Source: a virus. From it: DNA of 64,000 bases. The notes beneath the pieces are model-generated. The model saw only the letters and a list, made by a program, of their open reading frames with translations, ran no database searches and was not told the origin of the DNA. Numbering within the stretch: the stretch's first letter is position 1; the number at the start of each line of letters is the position of its first letter. Positions 3,380 to 61,753 of the stretch are shown here, piece by piece. The position numbers and the translations under genes were made by a program. The stretch is taken from the UHGV virus genome UHGV-1351772, one strand, 5' to 3'.

Positions 3380-3616
3380 TTAGCCGTATAGGTAATCAGT
3401 GTAAAGAACCTCCCCCTCAGGATAGTGCGTTGTACCGAGGAGTGTGGCTTCGAGGGTAACCTCTTCCACATCACCATCCGATAACAACTCGCCAGTCCAA
3501 CCTATTTCGGATGGAAGAATTGCACATGCAGCTTCTTCCGTAGGGGCTGCCACAATCATTGCGGAATATTCATCCCAACCAACGTGGTCGGTTCTTTCTA
3601 CTAGATACAAGTTCAT
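3380..3616 (-). CDS. hypothetical protein (78 aa; start moved to the internal ATG with an RBS)
   Basis: GGGAGAAAATT-ATG at 3616. The longer ORF start at 3640 has no RBS. Confidence 0.55.
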   Translation of the reverse strand: MNLYLVERTDHVGWDEYSAMIVAAPTEEAACAILPSEIGWTGELLSDGDVEEVTLEATLLGTTHYPEGEVLYTDYLYG

Positions 3617-3680
3617 AATTTTCTCCCACAGATAACACATCTCGTTTTCTGTGTTGAGAATGAACTTACTGGCTAAAATC

Positions 3681-3756
3681 TGGCGGGGGTGGGAAGTTTC
3701 GAACTCCCAACCTTCGGTTTTGGAGACCGCTGCACCACCAATTGTGCTACACCCCC
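3681..3756 (-). tRNA. tRNA-Trp (anticodon CCA), 76 nt with encoded CCA end
   Basis: Hand-folded cloverleaf. Acceptor stem is GGGGGTG/CACCCCC and D stem is GCAC/GTGC with a GG in the loop. The anticodon loop is CT-CCA-AA. T stem is GGGAG/CTTCC with loop TTCGAAA, and the discriminator is G. There is one G-A mismatch at positions 27-43. From memory, the anticodon and T arms look close to E. coli tRNA-Trp. Confidence 0.9.
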
Positions 3757-3763
3757 TAATACA

Positions 3764-4264
3764 TCAAAACAGCTTAAGTGTTTGCGTTTGACCACCGCTG
3801 TACAGGTCGTAACGTTTCGCCACTTCCACCGCAGTGGGGGCGTCAACGCCAGCACCTAATGCACCCAGGGCATAGTGAGCACCTGAGCCTATCGCATACG
3901 GCGGCTCTACAAACACGTAACTGGCGTATTTGTTGTCTTTGCACTTCGAGGCGTCGATAACGCGTCCGTCTGTCAAAACAGCAAGTACGATAAAATCAAT
4001 CTGCTCGGGATACGTCGTTTCGAATCTAACTCCACCCCGTTCGATACCGCCGAAACGTTCAAGCGTGAGTTCTTGGCGCACGGATTGCAATGCGGCGACA
4101 TCACCTGCCAAACCGATCGCTTTCACGTCTTCACCCAAAAGCTTCCACGACGTACCCTCAGGCGGCGTGTGAATCTTACGGTATTGCGTGGCAGCACTAC
4201 GTTCTTCCACGGTGACTTGACCGTCGCAAGCTAACGTCTTTCCGTCGAAAACAATCGTGGTCAT
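3764..4264 (-). CDS. HslV/proteasome beta-type N-terminal-nucleophile (Thr) peptidase homolog (166 aa)
   Basis: The N-terminus MTTIVFDGKTLACDGQVT parallels E. coli HslV MTTIV..AGDGQAT. Further matches are GLAGD (GFAGG) and AIGSGAHYALGALGAG (AIGSGGPYAQAAA). Confidence 0.65.
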   Translation of the reverse strand: MTTIVFDGKTLACDGQVTVEERSAATQYRKIHTPPEGTSWKLLGEDVKAIGLAGDVAALQSVRQELTLERFGGIERGGVRFETTYPEQIDFIVLAVLTDGRVIDASKCKDNKYASYVFVEPPYAIGSGAHYALGALGAGVDAPTAVEVAKRYDLYSGGQTQTLKLF

Positions 4265-4626
4265 GACAGATTTCCTAACTCATTGCCGACCTCCTGGTCA
4301 GCAGCTACCATCGAATTCGTGCAACGCGTAACATGTTCACGAATCGCTCGAGCCAAACCTTCACGAACGGCTACCAGGAGACACTCTCGATAGCTCGGAT
4401 AATGCGCAATAGGGCTAGGGATGTGTTCCACGCAATAACCATCGTGAACTTCCACCACTACCGTGATGTAAATCTCGACGGGTTGGTAAATCCGCACGCT
4501 CTTGATCAAATCAAGTAACGCTGGCTCCGTGCATCCCCAGTCCTCCGGGGCTTTTAACAGCACTGCCAACTCATCGAGCCTGTACTGAACATCCAATTCC
4601 ACGTTAGTGGTGTTTTTGGAATCCAT
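4261..4626 (-). CDS. hypothetical protein (121 aa; start moved to the ATG with a GGAG RBS)
   Basis: GGAGATTTTAAT-ATG at 4626. There is an ATGA overlap with the HslV-like gene. Confidence 0.6.
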   Translation of the reverse strand: MDSKNTTNVELDVQYRLDELAVLLKAPEDWGCTEPALLDLIKSVRIYQPVEIYITVVVEVHDGYCVEHIPSPIAHYPSYRECLLVAVREGLARAIREHVTRCTNSMVAADQEVGNELGNLS

Positions 4627-5486
4627 ATTAAAATCTCCTGTCGTGGTCTGTGTCACACCAACAGGAAATCCTGTAAAAAAATAATTCAGCTGCGTACCGG
4701 CGTTTCTCAACGGGAGTACGCACCCCTCTCGTCTTTGCGAGCCGTCAAGCTAGAGGACATCACACTGCCAGCGCTACCTGGAGCAGGGTCATTCGACGCA
4801 ACGTCGTAATTCGCATTTTGGCCGCACCTCTGGGAGCGTATCCCACCGTCGGCTGCCCGCAGGTAAGTTCTACGGACCTTTCGCCAACGTCGCTCCCAGA
4901 GGCTGCCACGGTTCACTCGGATTTTCTCATGTGGTCCACGCGTCACTGATAGCGCGGGTTCCCCAACACTCGTAAGTCGGGGAACGGTACCGAGCACCTG
5001 AACTCTGGGGATTCCAAAAATCCCTCGGGGTAAGTACGATTCGCAAATCGATTTTCAAACCCCATAGTAAAACAAACTCCAGTGTTAGGCTGAACGTTTT
5101 GTTTTTCCCAGTACACGGCGAAATAAATTCCATGCACTCGAAAAAACAACCCCCAAACCAACACCCGGTCAGGGGGCTTCGAGCTCTGCTGAATCTTCGC
5201 AGACAGAAATCGTGTTTGAGCTGTGAGCAGTAAACTCCTGAACTCCGAAAAATCTTCGTGGTTGGATTTGTAAATCATCCCACGCAAATCCTCCGAACAT
5301 ACCATAGGGTTTTAACGTTCGAAAAAGGGGAATGGGTTTTACCCCCCTCGGTCAGGTGTTCAGGGTAGACCCCCTACCCGATCCCCCAGGTGGGGATTTT
5401 ACCCTGGTGAATTACCCCGGGTTCGATTTTCGGATTTTCTGGAAAATACCGCTCACCGATCCCTACCCCCTCAGGGGGGTCAGACC

Positions 5487-5496
5487 GAGATCAGAT
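5487..5496 (+). repeat. left copy of the 10-bp direct repeat GAGATCAGAT
   Basis: Identical to 5718..5727. The two copies bracket the CG-block/A+T-core/CG-block unit. Confidence 0.9.
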
Positions 5497-5518
5497 CTCA
5501 TAATAAGGATCGCGCGCG

Positions 5519-5680
5519 TTTTATATATATTTATATATAATATATATTATATATAATAATTATTATATTAATAAATATATTAATATATTTATTTAAATAA
5601 ATAATTAAATAATACCTAAAGGTATTATTATTTTGATCCTAAAGGAATAATATATTTATAAATAAATATATTATACTATA
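5519..5680. repeat. A/T low-complexity core, about 93 percent A+T, with 5519-5614 being 96 nt of pure A/T
   Basis: Direct reading. It contains a perfect 24-nt palindrome at 5570-5593 (AATAAATATATTAATATATTTATT) and a hairpin AATACC-TAAA-GGTATT. It is bounded by CGCGCGCG (5511-5518) and by alternating Pu/Py sequence at 5676-5703 that includes an 18-bp perfect palindrome (5683-5700). Confidence 0.95.
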
Positions 5681-5717
5681 CGCGCGTGCGTACGCACGCG
5701 TATAAGGAAGAGATCTT

Positions 5718-5727
5718 GAGATCAGAT
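5718..5727 (+). repeat. right copy of the 10-bp direct repeat GAGATCAGAT
   Basis: Identical to 5487..5496. Confidence 0.9.
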
Positions 5728-6331
5728 TTTTGAGAGAGTTAAAAATTTAAGATCGATCCGAGAGACTTAGTGTCTCTCGAAGAGTATTAAAAAATTTAAA
5801 AGATCAAAAAACCAAAGCTAGAGAACTACTCAACCTGAATCTTCAGTGTGTGAAGATTCAGTAAGTTGATCAATCCAGCTGATCCGCTAGTACGCGAAGC
5901 GTGAATGTTTTTTTGATCGTCGCGGCGGCCGGTCCGCCGACCCGAGGGTGGGGTGGAACTGGTCGAGGGGAATGCCCCTCAGGCGCTCTCAATCGCGCTG
6001 TAACGAGTTAAACGGGGTTCTGGTACCCAAGTGTACCCCTTGAGGAGATTTTTGCGTCAAAATGCGTTCTAGAGCGTTTTACGATGGGGTGGGTTTTCGA
6101 CCCACTCAGGGATAGGGGTTGGCGTGACAGCTCGAACGACAAAATCGTGGTTTCATGGCGTTGAGTGAAAATAAATTCAAAACCCACAACCAAAAACACC
6201 CTCAAATTCTTCGTAGGAAGCTCTCTGACGAGATAAACGTGGGTAAGGGGTACGAACGTACCGCCTGGAAAGAAAAATGCGTTAGAATCGCTCTCAGCGC
6301 GTTTTTGATTTTTGGGCAAAAAAATAAAACG

Positions 6332-6351
6332 GGGGAGACTTCGGTCTCCCC
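6332..6351 (-). terminator. rho-independent terminator after CDS 6362..7486
   Basis: GGGGAGAC-TTCG-GTCTCCCC is followed on the minus strand by GTTTTATTTTTTT. Confidence 0.85.
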
Positions 6352-6361
6352 AGAATATTTT

Positions 6362-7486
6362 TTACAGAGTCGTCAGTTCTTTTGACGGATAGTACAGTTT
6401 CACATCGACCAAACTGTAACCGGTGGCGTAGAACACCTGATTTCCGACCGAAGCAATAAACCCTTCAGGGTCGATAACGTCAACCGAGAAATCGGAATCG
6501 AATAGCCAGGTTTCTTGTTCCCCTTCCCGTTCGAAAACGGCAGCGTAACGCCCGTATTCTGGGCCTCGGCGGAAACGAAACAGCGTTAATCCTGTCTCAC
6601 GTTCTAAGCCATAAATCACCCCATTTTCTTCGTAGATTTCAGCGCGATTACAGCGTGTAACCGTCAACAACGCAGGCCGTTGTGTCGGGATTGTTTTAAA
6701 CGGTGAAGGCCCATCGTATGTCGTTGAAACCCAATCACCGAGACTGTCTAACGCCAGTGCTCGATACGCGATAGGTGACTTGTAGTTACACAACCTGTTG
6801 CCCTCGGTGTACATCGTGTATTCGATGCGTAACGTAGTACCGATGATGTCGTTCAAACTCAGTTTGTAGTGCGCTAACTGGGCTTGTATACGACAGGACA
6901 GAATTGTACACAGGAAAGTGTGACCCTCTGTAGAACGGCACACAACTCCGTAATCGGTCACTGCCAGTAACGTGGCATCTGTTTTACGGACGGGTTCCAG
7001 GCGAAACACCTCATTTTCAGTTTCTACGAGGAACTGCGAAACCGCTTGGTTTCTGGATTTAGCTTTAATCGTATCGAACACATCACCCGCTTTTACGATT
7101 AACGGTTCTACCACGTTTACCTGAAACGGCAGCGGTTTAGTTGGGTATTGTCCCAACGTTGTAATCGTTACTGAGTTGAGTTCTGGGTCCGATGCGTCAG
7201 GATCACCAGACAACCAATACGTTAGCCATTTCGACAACGTCTGGGGAATGACGCGCGTGGTGTAAAACAGAATTTCGCCATGTAAACCTGCCTCTGCCAA
7301 TTCGCGTGCAAGAAACGAGTTGACCGCGTCGTAGGTACCGTTGCGCAAGATGTCCATACCCCCGACACGAACCAAATCACAAATTACGCCGTGTGGAAGA
7401 ACCCACATTTTGACGTTTTGATTTCGGTCGATGGTACCTTCGCGCAGCATTCTGTGCCAAACGGGTTTACGTAAGTAATTTCTCAT
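6362..7486 (-). CDS. hypothetical protein (374 aa)
   Basis: ATG is preceded by AAAGGAG. No motif recognised. Confidence 0.7.
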   Translation of the reverse strand: MRNYLRKPVWHRMLREGTIDRNQNVKMWVLPHGVICDLVRVGGMDILRNGTYDAVNSFLARELAEAGLHGEILFYTTRVIPQTLSKWLTYWLSGDPDASDPELNSVTITTLGQYPTKPLPFQVNVVEPLIVKAGDVFDTIKAKSRNQAVSQFLVETENEVFRLEPVRKTDATLLAVTDYGVVCRSTEGHTFLCTILSCRIQAQLAHYKLSLNDIIGTTLRIEYTMYTEGNRLCNYKSPIAYRALALDSLGDWVSTTYDGPSPFKTIPTQRPALLTVTRCNRAEIYEENGVIYGLERETGLTLFRFRRGPEYGRYAAVFEREGEQETWLFDSDFSVDVIDPEGFIASVGNQVFYATGYSLVDVKLYYPSKELTTL

Positions 7487-7513: not shown

Positions 7514-7538
7514 CTCTCACTAGGATAATATCTATCCG
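7514..7538 (-). promoter_or_regulatory. recurring promoter-like motif (minus-strand reading CGGATAGATATTATCCTAGTGAGAG)
   Basis: The core GATAATATCT(A/G)TC preceded by CAC-N3 is shared exactly with 52611..52635 and 61728..61753. It lies about 27 nt upstream of the ATG at 7486 in a divergent intergenic region. Confidence 0.5.
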
Positions 7539-7559: not shown

Positions 7560-8936
7560 ATGGCTGAACTGGTTTATGATTTTACATCCGGCTGCTACCA
7601 GAAAGCTGGAACTCGCGTCGCTCAGGAATCGTTCGGCCGTGATCCGTTCTTCGATGACGCGGAAACCTCATCGGGTTTGTACTACGACTACGGTTTTGGT
7701 GGCTACGTACCGATGGGATTCTCTGTTGCACACGAAGCCCGTCGCGACGACCGTTTACGTAAAGCGTTTGACGGCGTGTTTAATAAACTCGTGATTGACC
7801 GCAAATTGGCGTCTAAGCTGCGTCACTACGTAAGCGGAATACTCTCTCGTGAAGGTAACGTGGAGTGGTTAGGGTCGAACCTCCTCGGTGTTCACAGCAT
7901 CCGTTTTTTCGATTCGGACCGTAATCGTCTGTTCGATGAAGTTATCAACGTTGACGAAGATTATCTGTCGGAACTGATTAAAGAGTCCCAGTCGATTAAT
8001 ACCGATTGGCAGGTCGCGGGTGATACGTATAACCTGACCATCGTGTATTTGTTGCACCTGATGATTCCAAAGTTTGGCGACAAAGAAATCCTCGCTGCAG
8101 CCATCGACCTGGTGACGATACTCCAGTTTAAATTCTACTCGAGTATTTACTATCACTTCTTTCCGAAACCGGTTGATCTCCCTGCAGCAGAAGCGGCGTA
8201 TTCGATGCTCTCAATGAAATTCGATATTCGACGTTTGGGTAACTGGGGGCTGCATATGGCAGAACGTGCAACGTATTTCTGTTCGCCCGAATACCCGAAC
8301 TACGACGCCGTAAAACGTTTCGATACCCCCGACTTGGTACTGCGTTATATCACCGATTTAAATACACGTACGAAACAAACCGTGAAAGACTACTACGCGG
8401 TGCTCGATCGTGTACGTCGTGAGAATACTCGCGTGGTTAGTCAATCCGCGCGTATCGAGTTAGATGGCCAGTCTGTAATCCGTGATAAAGTCGGTGCACT
8501 AGAGATTGCAAAACAGAATCTGTTTGATGCGTCTTACGACATTAACAATCTGTACAAGGAAGAGTTGGCTCGTGTGGTGCTAGAAATGGTGCCCAAAGCA
8601 TCTCCCGCCGCGCTGAAAACGCTGCTGACTTATATCGCCAGTTTGCCGATTGGTAAGAAGCGTGATGAAATCAATAGCATTATGGAGGATACACTCTCAC
8701 ATGCTTTTGATGAGATTGTTACCAACCGTATCAACTTCAATGATGCGGTAACGGTGTTGCAGCGTATGCGTGCGTTGTATCAAGCATCGAAATCACCGAA
8801 CCCGTATGTGTTATCCCTACGGTCGAGAATTGAGAAATTGGCGGCGAAGGAAACACACATCCGACACGAATCCGCGTTAGCAGCTTTGCGTAATGCGTTG
8901 TTGTTATATTTCTTAATCCGGTCGTTACAGAAATAA
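7560..8936 (+). CDS. hypothetical protein (458 aa)
   Basis: ATG is preceded by GAGGT. It ends at a shared bidirectional terminator. No motif recognised. Confidence 0.7.
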   Translation: MAELVYDFTSGCYQKAGTRVAQESFGRDPFFDDAETSSGLYYDYGFGGYVPMGFSVAHEARRDDRLRKAFDGVFNKLVIDRKLASKLRHYVSGILSREGNVEWLGSNLLGVHSIRFFDSDRNRLFDEVINVDEDYLSELIKESQSINTDWQVAGDTYNLTIVYLLHLMIPKFGDKEILAAAIDLVTILQFKFYSSIYYHFFPKPVDLPAAEAAYSMLSMKFDIRRLGNWGLHMAERATYFCSPEYPNYDAVKRFDTPDLVLRYITDLNTRTKQTVKDYYAVLDRVRRENTRVVSQSARIELDGQSVIRDKVGALEIAKQNLFDASYDINNLYKEELARVVLEMVPKASPAALKTLLTYIASLPIGKKRDEINSIMEDTLSHAFDEIVTNRINFNDAVTVLQRMRALYQASKSPNPYVLSLRSRIEKLAAKETHIRHESALAALRNALLLYFLIRSLQK

Positions 8937-8992: not shown

Positions 8993-9232
8993 TCAATGGG
9001 GCCCTGACATTACCACGAGGTGTATAGAGTAGACCATATTTAGCGCATAGGTAGCTGACGAACCTGCTACCATCAGACCAAATACTGCAAATGCCTGTAC
9101 ATACCGTGTTTTTCGTAGTGGGAAACCTTGCGAACGTCCGTATTGTTTTATCGCTTGGTAACTCTCGCGGATCATTTTATACGTCGCTATCCACGAAAAG
9201 AACACAAGTAAATAGTAAATTGGAGCCATCAC
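8993..9232 (-). CDS. small membrane protein (79 aa, two hydrophobic segments)
   Basis: There is a 4-nt overlap with the terminase stop, which suggests translational coupling. Hydrophobic stretches are APIYYLLVFFSWIA and AFAVFGLMVAGSSATYAL. Confidence 0.55.
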   Translation of the reverse strand: MMAPIYYLLVFFSWIATYKMIRESYQAIKQYGRSQGFPLRKTRYVQAFAVFGLMVAGSSATYALNMVYSIHLVVMSGPH

Positions 9233-11337
9233 TTCATCCTCTGGCGTTGGATAAGCTCTCTTAAGCTTTCCATTGACGCCACGTTTTGTGTATCAGTGTT
9301 AAGTTGAGCAATGAGGGACTGGAGACGGTTACGAGCAGCCATTGCTTGAACCGGGTCTAATAACCCGTTTGTGGTTCGCACAAGACGCTCAATTTCCCCC
9401 ATCAGTTCCTGCTGTCGCGCCTCCTCCTCGAGTTGTAATTCCTCATCCACCCCTTCACGATTTTCGACTAAATTACGATTGCGCATCATCAATCGACTGT
9501 TGTTGATTTCATAATGCCCCAGGTTATTCCCAAGCAGCAATAACCACATCGCAAGTAACCAAGAAATCACGAGGTCGTCATGACCTGAAGCTTTGTGGTC
9601 AATACGACCATTTTTCTCCACGAGGTTAAGTATCTGGTCGATGAGTTCTCCGCAACGGAGTTTATCCGCGGATAAGCGCAACGCTGTGGTGAATACCTCA
9701 CCGTACAGTTTACGACGTTTTTCCTGGTCGGTTGAGAAACCGATATATTTACGGAATTTATTCCAGAACTTCTCAGCGTTACCAATAGGTCCACGGTGAT
9801 ACTCTTTGTAGAGATCGTCCGTACGTGAGTAGTCCTGAGTGATTCTCACAAATAAACGGCGATGTAAGTCCGTGACGCGAGACTGTAACTGCAGGATAAT
9901 TGCATCAGCCACAGACGAGCCAGTAGACCGTCGTTCCAGGATTAGTACCGTGTTAGGATATCGCACCATAAAATCCGCTAAATGAATCGCGAAAGAGATA
10001 ACGTTAGATTCGTTAACGGTTAATTTACCTGCATACTCTGCGGTCACAGAGTTAACAATAGACATGGCGATCGCGTCTCGACCCACCGCCTCAGAGGTAT
10101 CCAACCCGATGACGTGTCGGTCTTTGAGCTTCGTCATCATCTCCTCTTCGGTGTAGTACCAGTCGGTAACGTAGTTTTGTGGTGAAATATCTTTAAACAC
10201 AGCACGCATACGGGAAGCATTCATACGATCTGCATCTTCCGCTGAGAACGGCTTGTTCAGACCACCGGTAGTCCATTCACCCCCGAAGTCACGACGGATC
10301 TGGTCAGGGGTACCTTTGGCGTTCGCAATCATTGCCGCTAACTGCTCATCGCTGGTACCGAGCTGACGGTGGTTGTACTTCACGTAGAACATGATACGTG
10401 GGACTTCTGCCGTGGAGTTAGAACGGATGATATCAATGAGCTGTTTACGGGTTGGAATGTCGATATAGCGCTCATCCCACATAATCCCCGACGTCATCAG
10501 CTCGTACATGTACTTGCCTTCTTCCGTCGCTAAGTCACCAGGGGTTGTTGCGAATACGTTACCGTAAGGAACACCTTCCGCTTCGTTAATACGGCGAGCC
10601 GCTGTACCGGATGCCAGGGCTGCCGGTAGAATGTGGTGTACGTTTTTGGTAAAGGGGCCTTCGTCCGAGAACAGACGACCAGCGGTGAGTCCACGACCGA
10701 TACCGTTAGCAGATTCTGGGTCGTTTTGGCCGATACCCGTAATCAGTTTGTTACCCTGGGCTAAACACGCAAAAGTTTCGCGGTTATCTGGATCATCTGG
10801 ATGTGCTGGCCACAAGTAAGACGGTAGACCGTTACGTAGTTGCTTAAGTTTGTTAATGGTTTCTTCACGCAGTGCCGGTCCTTTTGTGATAAGAATCGTA
10901 CGAGAGTTTTCCAGAAACCGAATTAACCACAATAGTAATCCGCTCATCCCGACGGTTTTACCATGCTGACGGAGGAACTCGACGGCGGCGTCGATGTTGT
11001 TGAAGAAAATCCAATACATCGAAAAGTTACCACGGTCGATACGGAACGGCGACCCGTATTTCATACCGTCCGCAGGTACCCTGACGCACTCTCGAAACCA
11101 GTACCAAGGGTTTTCAGCACACTCGATGGCGATATACGCTTTCTGCTCGTCCGTTAGGTTTTCGTCAAAAGGATCGACCCCTTGCAGTAAAGGGTTATGT
11201 AAGGCGAGATGAATATAGTAGTGCTTTACACCCAGCTTTTTTAGGATATTTGCAAACTTGATAAACGATTTGTTTGTGGTTTTATCGTCAACAATAGCGC
11301 CTGGATAATAACGCCAGTCCGATTCACGTAGTATCAT
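9229..11337 (-). CDS. terminase large subunit (702 aa)
   Basis: Walker A-like LRQHGKT (compare T4 gp17 SRQLGKT) and Walker B-like RLFSDE. The size and a GAGGAG RBS fit. Confidence 0.8.
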   Translation of the reverse strand: MILRESDWRYYPGAIVDDKTTNKSFIKFANILKKLGVKHYYIHLALHNPLLQGVDPFDENLTDEQKAYIAIECAENPWYWFRECVRVPADGMKYGSPFRIDRGNFSMYWIFFNNIDAAVEFLRQHGKTVGMSGLLLWLIRFLENSRTILITKGPALREETINKLKQLRNGLPSYLWPAHPDDPDNRETFACLAQGNKLITGIGQNDPESANGIGRGLTAGRLFSDEGPFTKNVHHILPAALASGTAARRINEAEGVPYGNVFATTPGDLATEEGKYMYELMTSGIMWDERYIDIPTRKQLIDIIRSNSTAEVPRIMFYVKYNHRQLGTSDEQLAAMIANAKGTPDQIRRDFGGEWTTGGLNKPFSAEDADRMNASRMRAVFKDISPQNYVTDWYYTEEEMMTKLKDRHVIGLDTSEAVGRDAIAMSIVNSVTAEYAGKLTVNESNVISFAIHLADFMVRYPNTVLILERRSTGSSVADAIILQLQSRVTDLHRRLFVRITQDYSRTDDLYKEYHRGPIGNAEKFWNKFRKYIGFSTDQEKRRKLYGEVFTTALRLSADKLRCGELIDQILNLVEKNGRIDHKASGHDDLVISWLLAMWLLLLGNNLGHYEINNSRLMMRNRNLVENREGVDEELQLEEEARQQELMGEIERLVRTTNGLLDPVQAMAARNRLQSLIAQLNTDTQNVASMESLRELIQRQRMK

Positions 11338-52610: not shown

Positions 52611-52635
52611 GTCTCACGTAGATAATATCTGTCTG
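52611..52635 (-). promoter_or_regulatory. recurring promoter-like motif (minus-strand reading CAGACAGATATTATCTACGTGAGAC)
   Basis: Exact GATAATATCT core with CAC-N3, in a divergent intergenic region. Confidence 0.5.
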
Positions 52636-61727: not shown

Positions 61728-61753
61728 TTACACCTGGATAATATCTATCTAAG
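61728..61753 (-). promoter_or_regulatory. recurring promoter-like motif (minus-strand reading CTTAGATAGATATTATCCAGGTGTAA)
   Basis: Exact GATAATATCTATC core. It overlaps the stop codon of the upstream gene. Confidence 0.5.

What the first reader, a model, noticed from the sequence alone, without database searches (positions are those of the whole stretch)
5487..5727. 96-nt pure A/T run bracketed by alternating-CG (Z-DNA-prone) blocks and 10-bp direct repeats
The layout reads GAGATCAGAT, then ..TAAGGA-TCGCGCGCG, then the 162-bp core. The core is about 93 percent A+T, 5519-5614 has no G or C, and it contains a perfect 24-nt palindrome at 5570-5593. After the core comes ATACGCGCGTGCGTACGCACGCGTA-TAAGGA.., ending in GAGATCAGAT. 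The right CG block is a perfect purine/pyrimidine alternation of about 27 nt with an 18-bp perfect palindrome (5683-5700). Such a unit would unwind or extrude very easily under supercoiling, like a DNA unwinding element. The 10-bp direct repeats could alternatively be a target-site duplication of a small inserted element, although I see no terminal inverted repeats.
Basis: seen in the sequence. Interest (0 to 1): 0.65.

Follow-up and report, generated by a model that had tools for sequence, protein, structure and literature searches.

The report
Conserved AT-rich unwinding module in jumbo phages
The odd stretch is a real, single-copy, non-coding DNA element conserved at the same place in several genera of giant (SPN3US-like) bacteriophages: an almost pure A/T core that should melt very easily, clamped between CG-rich hairpin-forming blocks. 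It is most likely a replication-origin-type unwinding site, not an inserted mobile element or an assembly error.

Summary
The window is a jumbo phage about 75% identical to Salmonella SPN3US and Erwinia phiEaH2. The unit lies in a ~1.65-kb non-coding gap about 3.5 kb from the large terminase gene.

The same plan recurs at the syntenic site in Seoulvirus, Erskinevirus, Machinavirus, Wellingtonvirus, Miamivirus and several uncultivated relatives. The plan is: TAAGGA box, CG-rich block, 65-190 nt A/T core with small hairpins, CG-rich palindromic block ending CGCGTA, TAAGGA box.

In the complete SPN3US genome it is unique. It holds the longest A/T runs, the longest purine/pyrimidine alternation, the most AT-rich window and the densest GATC cluster.

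A stress-induced melting model opens the core by sigma about -0.035, and the bubble stops at the CG blocks. Z-DNA is outcompeted in that model.

- The 10-bp direct repeats exist only in the window's own lineage, so a target-site duplication is rejected.
- An assembly artefact is rejected, although public assemblies often break inside the core.
- No early-promoter motif and no protelomerase were found.

Best reading: an origin-type DNA unwinding module (confidence about 0.4). The main rival is a P1-like methylation-controlled packaging site. Function is untested.

The parts
4711..6361 (.). Large conserved non-coding region that holds the unit. It runs from the end of the last conserved ORF (4261-4710, minus strand) to the stop of the ligase-like gene.
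   Evidence: ORFs inside it have no protein-level conservation in Salmonella or Erwinia relatives. The equivalent ~1.7-kb stretch is un-annotated in SPN3US and is the largest gap in that genome. DNA identity to UViG L128 is 86-96% over 5100-5799, against about 77% in the adjacent gene.
5380..5918 (.). GATC cluster: 14 sites, paired on both sides of the unit.
   Evidence: Searches give 13 sites in 600 nt against 1.8 expected. Salmonella, Erwinia, Huxley and Wellington homologues have 7-9 sites against 1.1-2.5 expected. The Miami homologue has only 1. GATC is under-represented genome-wide (O/E 0.46-0.78). SPN3US encodes a D12/Dam-class methyltransferase.
5487..5496 (+). Left copy of the 10-bp direct repeat GAGATCAGAT (contains a GATC pair).
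   Evidence: It is exact in the window and L025, and the right copy is 9/10 in L128. It is absent from the other genera.
5500..5510 (+). Left box ATAATAAGGAT(C), with TAAGGA at 5504-5509.
   Evidence: TAATAAGGATC is conserved in Salmonella, Erwinia and Huxley phages; Wellington has TAATAAAGATC.
5511..5518 (.). Left CG block, CGCGCGCG.
   Evidence: Homologues have 18-52 nt CG/CA blocks at this position. It pairs with the start of the right block in the single-strand fold.
5519..5614 (.). 96-nt pure A/T run. This is the variable half of the core and contains palindromes of 26, 24, 18 and 18 nt.
   Evidence: Its length varies among close relatives: 51 nt in L025 and about 125 nt in L128. It is the predicted melted region at sigma -0.04 to -0.055.
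5611..5626 (.). Central mini-hairpin AATACC-TAAA-GGTATT.
   Evidence: It is identical in Salmonella phages. L128 has a loop change (AATACCAAAAGGTATT). Erwinia phages have ATATC-TAAA-GATAT twice. Huxley-like lineages have AACCC-GTA-GGGTT and AACTC-GAA-GAGTT with compensatory changes.
5637..5646 (.). Second small palindrome, TCCT-AA-AGGA, within GATCCTAAAGGAAT.
   Evidence: It is homologous to AAAGATCCTG(G/T)AGGA(T/A)A, which is conserved in Salmonella, Erwinia, Huxley and Wellington phages.
5646..5675 (.). 30-nt A/T run. This is the invariant right part of the core.
   Evidence: It is identical in the window, L025 and L128.
5677..5704 (.). Right block: 28-nt perfect purine/pyrimidine alternation, TATACG[CGCGTGCGTACGCACGCG]TATA, with an 18-bp palindrome at 5683-5700.
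   Evidence: Three alleles in close relatives keep the 28-nt length, the full alternation and an 8-9 bp arm palindrome. The window allele equals the reverse complement of the L025 allele plus one compensatory pair and one centre change. The arms GCGTGCG/CGCACGC with a 0-6 nt centre recur in Wellington, Miami, Huxley and L155.
5703..5708 (+). Right TAAGGA box, in the context CGCGTA-TAAGGA.
   Evidence: CGCGTA(A)TAA(G/T)GA follows the right block in the window, Salmonella, Erwinia, Huxley and Miami phages.
5718..5727 (+). Right copy of the direct repeat GAGATCAGAT.
5760..5778 (.). Right-flank hairpin GAGAGAC-TTAGT-GTCTCTC.
   Evidence: It is exactly reverse-complemented (loop flipped) in L025.
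5835..5861 (.). Right-flank hairpin CTGAATCTTC-AGTGTGT-GAAGATTCAG.
   Evidence: It is conserved through compensatory changes in Salmonella and Erwinia homologues (inverted repeat I8).
5891..5915 (+). Small hairpin ACGCGAAGCGT followed by a T run (terminator-like).
   Evidence: It is conserved in L128, Salmonella and Erwinia phages.
6332..6351 (-). Intrinsic terminator that ends the ligase-like gene before the non-coding region.
   Evidence: 8-bp GC-rich stem, then CGTTTTATTT.

Best explanation
The unit is a conserved, single-copy, cis-acting DNA module of SPN3US-like nucleus-forming jumbo phages. It works as a bounded DNA-unwinding element and is most probably the phage's origin of replication, or one of its origins.

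Proposed mechanism:
1. Negative supercoiling melts the almost pure A/T core.
2. The CG-rich blocks on either side act as clamps that fix the edges of the bubble.
3. Once the DNA is single-stranded, the blocks and the small conserved hairpins inside the core fold into defined stem-loops. These offer structure-specific landmarks for the phage replisome (helicase, primase or RNA polymerase).
4. The directly repeated TAAGGA boxes and the flanking GATC pairs are candidate protein-binding and Dam-methylation control sites.

Shown here:
- the anatomy of the unit;
- its uniqueness in a complete genome;
- its syntenic conservation across genera;
- retention of alternation and palindromy through substitutions;
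- predicted preferential melting limited by the clamps.

Inferred, not shown:
- that melting happens in vivo;
- that anything binds the boxes or hairpins;
- that replication starts here.
For: **Conservation.** The same plan sits at the syntenic site, next to the phiKZ-gp32-like head gene and 3.5-8 kb from the large terminase gene. This holds in Seoulvirus, Erskinevirus, Machinavirus, Wellingtonvirus, the window's own lineage and Miamivirus. The neighbouring proteins of the window and Miami are only 23-28% identical.

**Uniqueness.** In the complete SPN3US genome the element holds the longest A/T runs (54 and 35 nt; next 21). It also holds the longest alternating run (23 nt; next 16), the most AT-rich 150-nt window and the densest GATC window. 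It lies in the largest non-coding gap.

**Constraint.** Non-coding DNA over 5100-5799 is 86-96% identical to L128, while the adjacent gene is about 77% identical.

**Biophysics.** The model opens the core at sigma about -0.033. The bubble is about 97 bp at -0.055 and 155 bp at -0.07, and it never crosses the CG blocks. All six other homologues tested open at -0.04. Phobos and Goslar loci, which lack the element, do not.

**Hairpins.** Single-strand folds have z-scores of -3.9 to -5.6, with the left and right blocks pairing. The right-block palindrome is maintained by a compensatory pair and by an orientation flip. Conserved arms with a 0-6 nt spacer argue for a stem-loop rather than a fixed duplex binding site. 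The mini-hairpins show compensatory changes.

**Core length.** The A/T core varies from 65 to 190 nt, as expected for an unwinding element rather than a coded binding array.

**Context.**
- A terminator shields the region from upstream transcription.
- The adjacent gene has a DNA-ligase fold.
- In SPN3US the ~45 kb that follows carries DNA polymerase, helicase and RNA polymerase genes, nearly all read away from the element.
- A GATC cluster together with a phage Dam-class methyltransferase parallels methylation-controlled origins.

**Literature.** No origin is described for these phages in the papers searched.
Against: - No replication data exist for this element.
- No recognisable initiator gene was found, and no classical iteron array. 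There are only two TAAGGA boxes and the CG palindromes.
- Cumulative GC skew is dominated by the almost unidirectional gene orientation and shows no switch at the element.
- The element is absent from the syntenic region of Phobos, Vibrio pVp-JHP1101, N1M2, RisingSun, Aphrodite1 and Goslar, and from the first 40 kb of phiKZ. If it is an origin, it is a lineage-specific one.
- Its patchy presence (in Miami but not in the Miami relatives sampled) suggests a transferable cassette.
- The melting prediction depends on low-salt parameters. With stiffer parameters nothing opens, although in the loci carrying the element the core stays the best site.
- These phages may rely on recombination-dependent replication.
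- The P1-pac-like GATC layout and the nearness to the terminase gene fit a packaging site about as well.
Confidence: 0.4

Rival explanations
1. It is the packaging initiation (pac) site for headful packaging, built like phage P1 pac. Clusters of Dam-methylatable GATC motifs on both sides of a central cleavage region would be recognised by the terminase and licensed by phage Dam methylation.
For: GATC sites are concentrated on both sides of the core in all SPN3US-like lineages (7-13 in 600 nt against 1-2.5 expected), while GATC is avoided genome-wide. SPN3US encodes a D12/Dam-class methyltransferase. The unit lies 3.5-8 kb from the large terminase gene in every lineage, including Miami. It is single-copy. 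The SPN3US record starts 55 nt from the unit, and several other records start or end within it.
Against: The Miami-type element keeps the architecture but has no GATC cluster. Assembly breaks fall at different positions inside the A/T core (L127, L129, EC001, SPFM2, phiKp_32). That pattern fits sequencing drop-out in extreme A/T rather than a defined end. Many other records start elsewhere and read straight through. From my knowledge of P1, P22 and SPP1, no characterised pac site has a 100-190 nt pure A/T core of freely variable length.
Confidence: 0.17
2. It is a transcriptional boundary or regulatory region. The CG hairpins would act as convergent terminators or insulators, and the A/T core as a promoter or UP-like region. 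Together they would separate the structural/terminase block from the leftward block, or drive the structured non-coding RNAs in the flanks.
For: The unit lies between an intrinsic terminator (6351-6332, minus strand) and leftward-read genes. In Miami it sits in a divergent intergenic region. The left blocks of Salmonella and Erwinia phages are a hairpin followed by TTTT. The flanks contain hairpins with covariation, and the left flank has G-U pairs on the minus strand. Early promoters of phiKZ-like phages are AT-rich (PMC5312081, PMC7598289).
Against: The candidate early-promoter motif of this clade (…AGATAGATATTATCT) scores 37-43 at its true sites but about 0 anywhere in 5300-6400. The AT motifs of the flanks do not recur elsewhere in the genomes. 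A promoter or terminator needs neither a 100-190 nt pure A/T tract nor a 28-nt alternating palindrome. The sigma-70-like hits in the core are no more frequent than in shuffled sequence.
Confidence: 0.13
3. It is a programmed hairpin or cruciform processing site. The quasi-palindromic unit would extrude or fold during replication. It would then be cut or resolved by a structure-specific nuclease (the phage SbcCD-like enzyme or a telomere-resolvase-like enzyme). This would seed recombination-dependent replication or resolve concatemers.
For: The left and right blocks pair, and the whole unit folds far better than shuffles in four lineages. Two independent palindrome flips separate close relatives (right block and hairpin 5760-5778), which suggests these palindromes do form intrastrand structures in vivo. 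The Erwinia right block matches the N15 telO half-site in 15 of 15 nt (TACGCGCGTATAATG). SPN3US carries a gene annotated as an SbcD-like subunit and one with a weak SMC/RecN-like N-terminal match.
Against: No TelN-like protelomerase is found in a six-frame search of SPN3US, the window and the Miami-like locus (best E 0.14). The dyad symmetry of the whole unit is weak in the window: only about 8 bp of the left block pair with the right block. Alternating CG blocks are self- and cross-complementary by nature, so the fold z-scores are not specific. Assemblies read through from one unique flank to the other, so these are not hairpin ends.
Confidence: 0.1
4. The unit has no function of its own. It would be a mutationally unstable low-complexity A/T tract plus CpG microsatellite-like blocks, tolerated in a large spacer and spread by recombination.
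For: Core length changes by tens of nucleotides between near-identical phages. The right block is a substitution hot spot: 7 of 28 positions differ while the flanks differ by 2-8%. The element is missing in several related genera.
Against: The architecture, the boxes and the mini-hairpins persist across genera whose neighbouring proteins are about 26% identical. Compensatory changes keep the stems. Part of the core is invariant (5604-5676). The region is more conserved than the adjacent gene.
Confidence: 0.08
5. It is a small inserted mobile element with a 10-bp target-site duplication, or else an assembly artefact. These are the first reader's two alternatives.
For: Exact 10-bp direct repeats lie 231 bp apart. 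The Miami version has 13-bp terminal inverted repeats, TATTACGCGTGCG/CGCACGCGTAATA. The distribution among genera is patchy.
Against: The repeat is confined to the window's lineage and is already 9/10 in L128. Other genera carry the unit at the same site without it. There is one copy per genome. No transposase is present, and the window's unit has no terminal inverted repeats. No empty site was found among relatives with alignable flanks. More than ten independent isolate and metagenome assemblies share the structure.
Confidence: 0.02

Closest known systems
Origin DNA-unwinding elements bracketed by recognition or hairpin elements. Examples: archaeal oriC (ORB-DUE-ORB), herpes simplex oriS (A/T centre between inverted UL9 boxes), lambda ori (A/T-rich tract next to a 28-bp palindrome). 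Recalled from established knowledge, not tested here.
   Same: An A/T-rich, easily melted centre is flanked on both sides by GC-richer, partly palindromic elements. The unit is single-copy and lies in a large intergenic region.
   Different: The core is much longer and purer (96 nt with no G or C; 65-190 nt overall) and freely variable in length. The flanks are alternating CG/CA palindromes rather than known initiator boxes. No initiator protein is identified, and there is no functional evidence.
E. coli oriC and P1 oriR (GATC-rich, Dam/SeqA-controlled origins). From established knowledge.
   Same: GATC sites cluster strongly around an A/T-rich unwinding region, and a Dam-class methyltransferase is available (encoded by the phage in SPN3US).
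   Different: No DnaA-box array is present. These phages replicate inside a protein shell (the phage nucleus) that is reported to exclude most host proteins. The Miami version lacks the GATC cluster.
Bacteriophage P1 pac site. It is 162 bp, with GATC-containing hexamers on both sides of the cleavage region, and cleavage needs Dam methylation. From established knowledge.
   Same: GATC groups lie on both flanks of a roughly 200-bp centre. The phage encodes a Dam-type enzyme. The phages are thought to package by a headful mechanism (my recollection; packaging was not tested here), and the terminase gene is a few kb away.
   Different: There is no conserved TGATCA/G hexamer. The centre is a pure A/T tract with CG palindromes. 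No termini have been mapped.
N15 / phiKO2 telRL protelomerase target.
   Same: Both have a palindrome with an alternating TACGCGCGTA-type centre. The window has TATACGCGCGT, and the Erwinia phages share 15 of 15 nt with telO.
   Different: No protelomerase homologue was found. The palindrome is only one flank of a larger asymmetric unit. The genomes assemble as permuted circles rather than with hairpin ends.
Stress-induced duplex destabilisation (SIDD) sites and Z-DNA-forming (CG/CA)n tracts in general.
   Same: The sequence features and the predicted behaviour under negative supercoiling match.
   Different: This is a phylogenetically conserved composite unit with boxes and hairpins, not a generic A/T tract. 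Z-DNA formation is not favoured once the core melts.

Membership tests
Replication origin (DUE-type) | A/T-rich region that is the preferred site of supercoil-driven unwinding | tested here: met
   The Benham-type model gives P(open) about 1 at sigma -0.04 in the window and 0.74-1.0 in six homologues. Control loci without the element stay closed. The result depends on the parameters used.
Replication origin (DUE-type) | Adjacent repeated binding sites for an initiator (iterons, DnaA or ORB boxes) and an initiator gene | tested here: inconclusive
   Only two direct TAAGGA boxes, the CG palindromes and the flank hairpins were found. No initiator was recognised among the neighbours: Pfam gave nothing, and the adjacent gene has a ligase fold.
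Replication origin (DUE-type) | Single copy at a conserved position | tested here: met
   It is unique in the 240-kb SPN3US genome and syntenic in six lineages.
Replication origin (DUE-type) | Compositional skew switch at the site | tested here: inconclusive
   The cumulative GC skew rises almost monotonically with the one-strand gene orientation. The minimum at the record start is trivial.
Replication origin (DUE-type) | Initiation of DNA synthesis mapped to the site, or autonomous replication | not testable with these tools
   This needs marker-frequency analysis, nascent-strand mapping or plasmid amplification assays.
Transposable element with target-site duplication | Direct repeats flanking every copy, with an empty site in relatives | tested here: not met
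   The repeat occurs only in the window's lineage. Orthologous units in other genera lack it.
Transposable element with target-site duplication | Terminal inverted repeats, multiple copies, a transposase | tested here: not met
   The window's unit has no terminal inverted repeats, although Miami has 13-bp ones. There is one copy per genome. No transposase lies nearby.
Protelomerase target (telRL) | Palindrome with an alternating pyrimidine-purine centre | tested here: met
   There is an 18-bp perfect palindrome at 5683-5700. The Erwinia block matches the N15 telO half-site in 15 of 15 nt.
Protelomerase target (telRL) | A protelomerase encoded by the same genome | tested here: not met
   phmmer --max with N15 TelN was run against six-frame translations of the complete SPN3US genome, the window and the Miami-like locus. 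The best E-value was 0.14. A very divergent enzyme could be missed.
P1-type pac site | GATC-containing motifs clustered on both sides of a central region, plus a Dam-type methylase | tested here: met
   This does not hold for the Miami-type element.
P1-type pac site | Defined packaging-series ends at the site | not testable with these tools
   Only indirect evidence is available: record and contig ends fall at scattered positions within the core. That pattern fits coverage drop-out better.
Z-DNA-forming tract | An uninterrupted alternating purine-pyrimidine run rich in CG/CA | tested here: met
   The run is 28 nt in the window. It is 15-33 nt in Salmonella, Erwinia, Huxley, Wellington, Miami and L155, but only 7-11 nt in L166 and L186.
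Z-DNA-forming tract | B-to-Z transition at physiological superhelicity in its native context | tested here: not met
   In the competition model, P(Z) is at most 8e-4 at every sigma tested, because the core melts first. This is a model result only and needs antibody or chemical probing.
Early (virion RNA polymerase) promoter cluster of phiKZ-like phages | Matches to the clade's conserved AT-rich early-promoter motif | tested here: not met
   A weight matrix built from 13 sites scores 37-43 at the true sites and at most 0.3 in 5300-6400.

The most novel reading that the evidence does not exclude
The unit is the first definable cis-acting replicator of a nucleus-forming jumbo phage (Chimalliviridae). 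It would be a supercoil-triggered origin whose bubble is bounded by hairpin-forming CG clamps, gated by phage Dam methylation of the flanking GATC pairs, and exchangeable as a cassette between genera. The last point would explain why Miamivirus carries it although the relatives of Miami sampled here do not. The same cassette could double as the packaging start.
Probability: 0.3. Interest if true: 0.75.

Novelty: new variant of a known kind. Interest (0 to 1): 0.58.

Why it matters
No origin of replication or packaging signal is described for SPN3US-like or other nucleus-forming jumbo phages in the papers I could search. That includes a 2026 review and a phiKZ transposon-mutagenesis preprint, neither of which mentions one.

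A unique, conserved, roughly 220-bp unit gives a concrete target for several experiments:
- mapping where replication or packaging starts inside the phage nucleus;
- building shuttle or engineering vectors for these phages;
- testing how supercoiling and phage Dam methylation act on a shielded genome.

There is also a practical point. Short-read assemblies of these phages tend to break at this site. Contig ends there should not be read as genome termini.

Tried and rejected
- **Rfam.** At gathering thresholds on the whole window, and with permissive thresholds on 4500-6500, it found only tRNA-Trp and two sub-threshold chance hits.
- **IMG/VR scan with the hairpin 17-mer.** This was mostly noise (about 120 loci). 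Only L025 and L066 were true homologues.
- **GC skew of SPN3US.** Uninformative, because nearly all genes share one strand.
- **Search for a recurring AT-rich motif in the window.** None was found beyond the element itself. The flank motifs do not recur in the window or in SPN3US. A GTTAAAGATA k-mer turned out to be coding noise.
- **phiKZ, first 40 kb (terminase and gp32 region).** No comparable unit.
- **Protelomerase search.** Negative.
- **CGCG avoidance.** Not present genome-wide, so the CG blocks are not islands of an otherwise avoided word.
- **Pfam, PHROGs and PDB sequence searches of the neighbouring proteins.** They gave no function. Only the fold search identified the 374-aa neighbour as ligase-like, which does not settle the role of the element.
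- **Literature searches.** Searches for an SPN3US origin, termini or transcription map returned nothing relevant.
Full report
**1.

- GAGATCAGAT lies at 5487-5496 and 5718-5727.
- TAAGGA (5504-5509) is followed by CGCGCGCG (5511-5518).
- 5519-5614 is a 96-nt run without G or C. The next longest A/T runs in the window are 30 nt (5646-5675, inside the same unit) and then 17 nt.
- Perfect palindromes lie at 5570-5593 (24 nt), 5531-5556 (26 nt), 5551-5568 and 5586-5603 (18 nt each).
- The right block is a perfect purine/pyrimidine alternation of 28 nt (5677-5704; next longest 16 nt). It contains an 18-bp palindrome at 5683-5700 and is followed by TAAGGA (5703-5708).
- The 162-nt core 5519-5680 is 93.8% A+T.

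None of this is plausible by chance. By my own calculation, about 5e-22 such A/T runs and about 5e-4 such alternations are expected in 64 kb.

One is a cluster of 14 GATC sites in 5380-5918 against 1.6 expected. The other is a small hairpin, AATACCTAAAGGTATT, at 5611-5626.

**2. What the window is and where the unit sits**

The window is from a jumbo phage about 75% identical in DNA to Salmonella phage SPN3US (Seoulvirus) and to Erwinia phages phiEaH2 and Asesino (Erskinevirus). Near-identical uncultivated contigs exist in IMG/VR.

The genes to the right of the unit are:
- a 374-aa protein at 6362-7486 (minus strand);
- a homologue of the phiKZ gp32 head protein at 7560-8936;
- the large terminase at 9229-11337.

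To the left lie small ORFs, tRNA-Trp and an HslV-like peptidase gene, all read leftwards.

The ORFs between 4711 and 6361 are not conserved as proteins in relatives. The equivalent ~1.7 kb is un-annotated in SPN3US, where it is the largest gap in the genome. An intrinsic terminator at 6351-6332 (minus strand) ends the 374-aa gene before this region.

**3. The unit is conserved, orthologous and single-copy**

The same plan occurs at the syntenic position in:
- Salmonella phages (L001, SPN3US);
- Erwinia phages Asesino and phiEaH2, Huxley (Machinavirus) and Wellington;
- Klebsiella phage Miami and its relatives;
- IMG/VR contigs L025, L128, L155, L166 and L186.

The plan, from left to right, is:
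1. (T)AATAAGGATC.
2. A CG/CA-rich block.
3. TTTTA.
4. An A/T core of 65-190 nt containing one or two mini-hairpins.
5. In most lineages, AAAGATCCTGNAGGA.
6. A CG-rich palindromic block ending (C)ACGCGTA.
7. TAA(G/T)GA.

Synteny with the terminase and the gp32-like gene holds even for the Miami group, whose proteins are only 23-28% identical to the window's.

In the complete SPN3US genome the unit is unique. It holds the longest A/T runs (54 and 35 nt; next 21) and the longest alternating run (23 nt; next 16). It also holds the most AT-rich 150-nt window and the densest GATC window.

The unit is absent from the syntenic region of Phobos, Vibrio phage pVp-JHP1101, N1M2, RisingSun, Aphrodite1 and Goslar. 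It is also absent from the first 40 kb of phiKZ. It is therefore specific to a set of enterobacterial jumbo phages. Miami carries it although the Miami relatives sampled here do not, which hints at transfer as a cassette.

**4. Micro-evolution says which properties matter**

Against L128, the non-coding stretch 5100-5799 is 86-96% identical, while the adjacent coding gene is about 77% identical.

Within this conserved stretch, the left half of the A/T core changes length freely: the run is 51, 96 or about 125 nt. The right half (5604-5676) is invariant.

The 28-nt right block has three alleles that differ at up to 7 positions. All differences are transitions, so the length, the perfect alternation and an 8-9 bp arm palindrome are all kept. 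The window allele equals the reverse complement of the L025 allele plus one compensatory pair and one centre change. L025 and L128 differ by a flip of the central dinucleotide, TG against CA.

The flank hairpin at 5760-5778 is likewise exactly reverse-complemented in L025. Such flips are what intrastrand pairing of palindromes produces.

Across genera every right block has a short GC-rich palindrome with arms of 5-9 nt. In five lineages the arms are GCGTGCG/CGCACGC with a centre of 0, 2, 4 or 6 nt. That pattern fits a stem-loop better than a duplex site for a dimeric protein.

Long alternation is not universal. L166 and L186 have CGCG-rich palindromes with alternating runs of only 7-11 nt.

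The mini-hairpins inside the core show compensatory changes: AACCC-GTA-GGGTT against AACTC-GAA-GAGTT, and AATACC…GGTATT against ATATC…GATAT. The flank hairpins do too.

**5. Predicted physical behaviour**

I wrote a single-run Benham-type model of stress-induced melting with competing Z-DNA states. It used a 5-kb domain and standard low-salt energies.

- The core opens at sigma about -0.033 and reaches P about 1 by -0.04. This is 10^4 to 10^20 times more likely than anywhere else in the domain.
- The bubble is about 97 bp at -0.055, which matches the pure A/T run. It is 155 bp at -0.07, which matches the whole core. It never passes the CG blocks.
- Z-DNA in the blocks stays below 1e-3, because melting removes the torsional stress.

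The cores of the Salmonella, Erwinia (phiEaH2, Huxley, Wellington), Miami and L128 units also open at -0.04. Phobos and Goslar loci, which lack the unit, do not.

With stiffer energies nothing opens, although in the loci carrying the element the core remains the best site. The ranking is therefore robust, but the threshold is not.

As single strands, the units of four lineages fold far better than dinucleotide shuffles (z -3.9 to -5.6), and the left and right blocks pair with each other. That z-score is not very specific, because alternating CG blocks are intrinsically complementary.

**6. Alternatives tested**

*Inserted element with a target-site duplication.* Rejected. The repeat is lineage-specific and already 9/10 in L128. 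Orthologous units in other genera lack it. There is one copy per genome, no transposase, and no terminal inverted repeats in the window's unit.

*Assembly artefact.* Rejected, because many independent assemblies share the structure. However, at least six assemblies break at different positions inside the core (L127, L129, EC001/Lh1B, JN03, SPFM2/Proteus phage 7, phiKp_32). This is typical of coverage loss in extreme A/T sequence.

*Early-promoter cluster.* I found the clade's probable early-promoter motif, cTcnAAaaaatntnAGATAGATATTATCT. It has 10 sites in SPN3US and 3 in the window. It matches the published description of about 10-nt AT-rich early motifs in such phages (PMC7598289, PMC5312081). 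The motif is absent from 5300-6400: the best score there is about 0, against 37-43 at true sites.

*Protelomerase site.* The block resembles N15 telO, and the Erwinia phages match it in 15 of 15 nt. However, no TelN-like protein is encoded.

*P1-like pac site.* Not excluded.
- GATC is avoided genome-wide (O/E 0.46-0.78) but concentrated on both flanks in all SPN3US-like lineages.
- SPN3US encodes a Dam-class methyltransferase.
- The terminase gene is a few kb away.
- Against this reading, the Miami-type unit has no GATC cluster, and the assembly breaks are scattered.

**7. Best explanation**

The unit is a bounded DNA-unwinding module, most probably an origin of replication (confidence about 0.4).

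The steps that are shown:
- conserved composite anatomy;
- uniqueness in a complete genome;
- selection for CG-rich hairpin or alternating flanks and for the mini-hairpins;
- predicted preferential melting limited by the flanks.

The steps that are inferred:
- melting in vivo;
- recognition of the single-strand hairpins or the TAAGGA boxes by replication proteins;
- control by methylation;
- initiation of DNA synthesis at this site.

Supporting context is weak but consistent:
- The adjacent 374-aa protein has an ATP-dependent DNA-ligase fold (pLDDT 86). Foldseek matches ASFV, T4 and Chlorella virus ligases at E about 1e-6. Pfam and PDB sequence searches had found nothing for it.
- In SPN3US, the ~45 kb read away from the unit contains DNA polymerase, helicase and RNA polymerase genes.

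The evidence against:
- there is no initiator and no iteron array;
- GC skew is uninformative;
- the unit is absent from other chimalliviruses;
- replication in these phages may be recombination-driven.

**8. Relation to what is known, and novelty**

In function the unit resembles origin unwinding elements flanked by recognition or hairpin elements: archaeal ORB-DUE-ORB, HSV oriS, lambda ori. It also resembles Dam-controlled GATC-rich sites (oriC, P1 oriR, P1 pac). I cite these from general knowledge, not from tests run here.

It cannot be filed as a member of any of them, because the defining functional features are untested. It fails the membership tests for a transposable element, a protelomerase site and an early-promoter cluster.

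I found no description of this element, or of any origin or pac site, for SPN3US-like phages in the searchable literature. I rate it a new variant of a known kind. It is of moderate to high interest because it turns the question of where these shielded genomes start replication or packaging into a directly testable one.

Noticed in passing
window 7524-7537 (-), 52621-52634 (-), 61737-61750 (-); SPN3US L130-L133, 10 sites: A highly conserved motif, cTcnAAaaaatntnAGATAGATATTATCT, lies 30-40 nt upstream of ribosome-binding sites. It is probably the early (virion RNA polymerase) promoter consensus of this phage clade.
   Followed up: partly
window 5050-5300 (minus strand): The non-coding left flank has several hairpins conserved through compensatory changes. 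It has many G-U pairs on the minus strand only. This suggests a structured leader or non-coding RNA read leftwards. It has no Rfam match.
   Followed up: partly
window 5760-5778, 5835-5861, 5891-5915: The right flank carries three conserved hairpins. The first is exactly reverse-complemented (loop flipped) in the near-identical contig L025. The second is kept by compensatory changes in Salmonella and Erwinia phages. The third (ACGCGAAGCGT plus a T run) looks like a plus-strand terminator, so a short rightward RNA is possible.
   Followed up: partly
window 6362-7486 (-): This 374-aa protein has no Pfam, PHROG-function or PDB sequence hit. Its AlphaFold model (pLDDT 86) nevertheless matches ATP-dependent DNA ligases (ASFV, T4, Chlorella virus). 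No KxDG motif is evident around the invariant lysine K117 (…TKPLP…), so it may be a divergent or inactive ligase.
   Followed up: partly
window 6332-6351: A strong GC-rich hairpin (GGGGAGAC-TTCG-GTCTCCCC) has T runs on both strands. It is a bidirectional intrinsic terminator between the ligase-like gene and the non-coding region.
   Followed up: no
whole window; SPN3US L131:46875-47669: GATC is under-represented genome-wide in SPN3US-like phages (O/E 0.78 in the window, 0.52 in SPN3US), and SPN3US gp161 is a D12/Dam-class methyltransferase. The Miami-like phage instead over-represents GATC (O/E 1.5).
   Followed up: partly
L127 (end), L129 (end), records MN445185, OK428535, MT799840, LR535921, MT679221, LC768500: Many public isolate and metagenome assemblies of these phages start or end inside the A/T core, at differing positions. 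The core is a systematic assembly break point and should not be taken as a genome terminus.
   Followed up: partly
P0002 (homologue of window 6362-7486): A 99%-identical partial copy of the ligase-like protein is deposited in NCBI under Shigella flexneri. This hints that the window's phage infects Shigella or E. coli, or contaminates such an assembly.
   Followed up: no
window 3600-5100 against L128: Identity between the window and L128 is sharply mosaic: 94-99% over 3800-4199, about 50% over 4300-4499, and 88-98% over 4600-4999. This indicates recombination among these phages around the element.
   Followed up: no
L145 (Goslar) 4987-5296; L140 (Phobos) 480-1060: Phages that lack the unit still have a moderately AT-rich non-coding stretch at roughly the same relative position. 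It becomes the preferred melting site only at sigma -0.06. It may be a functional counterpart.
   Followed up: no
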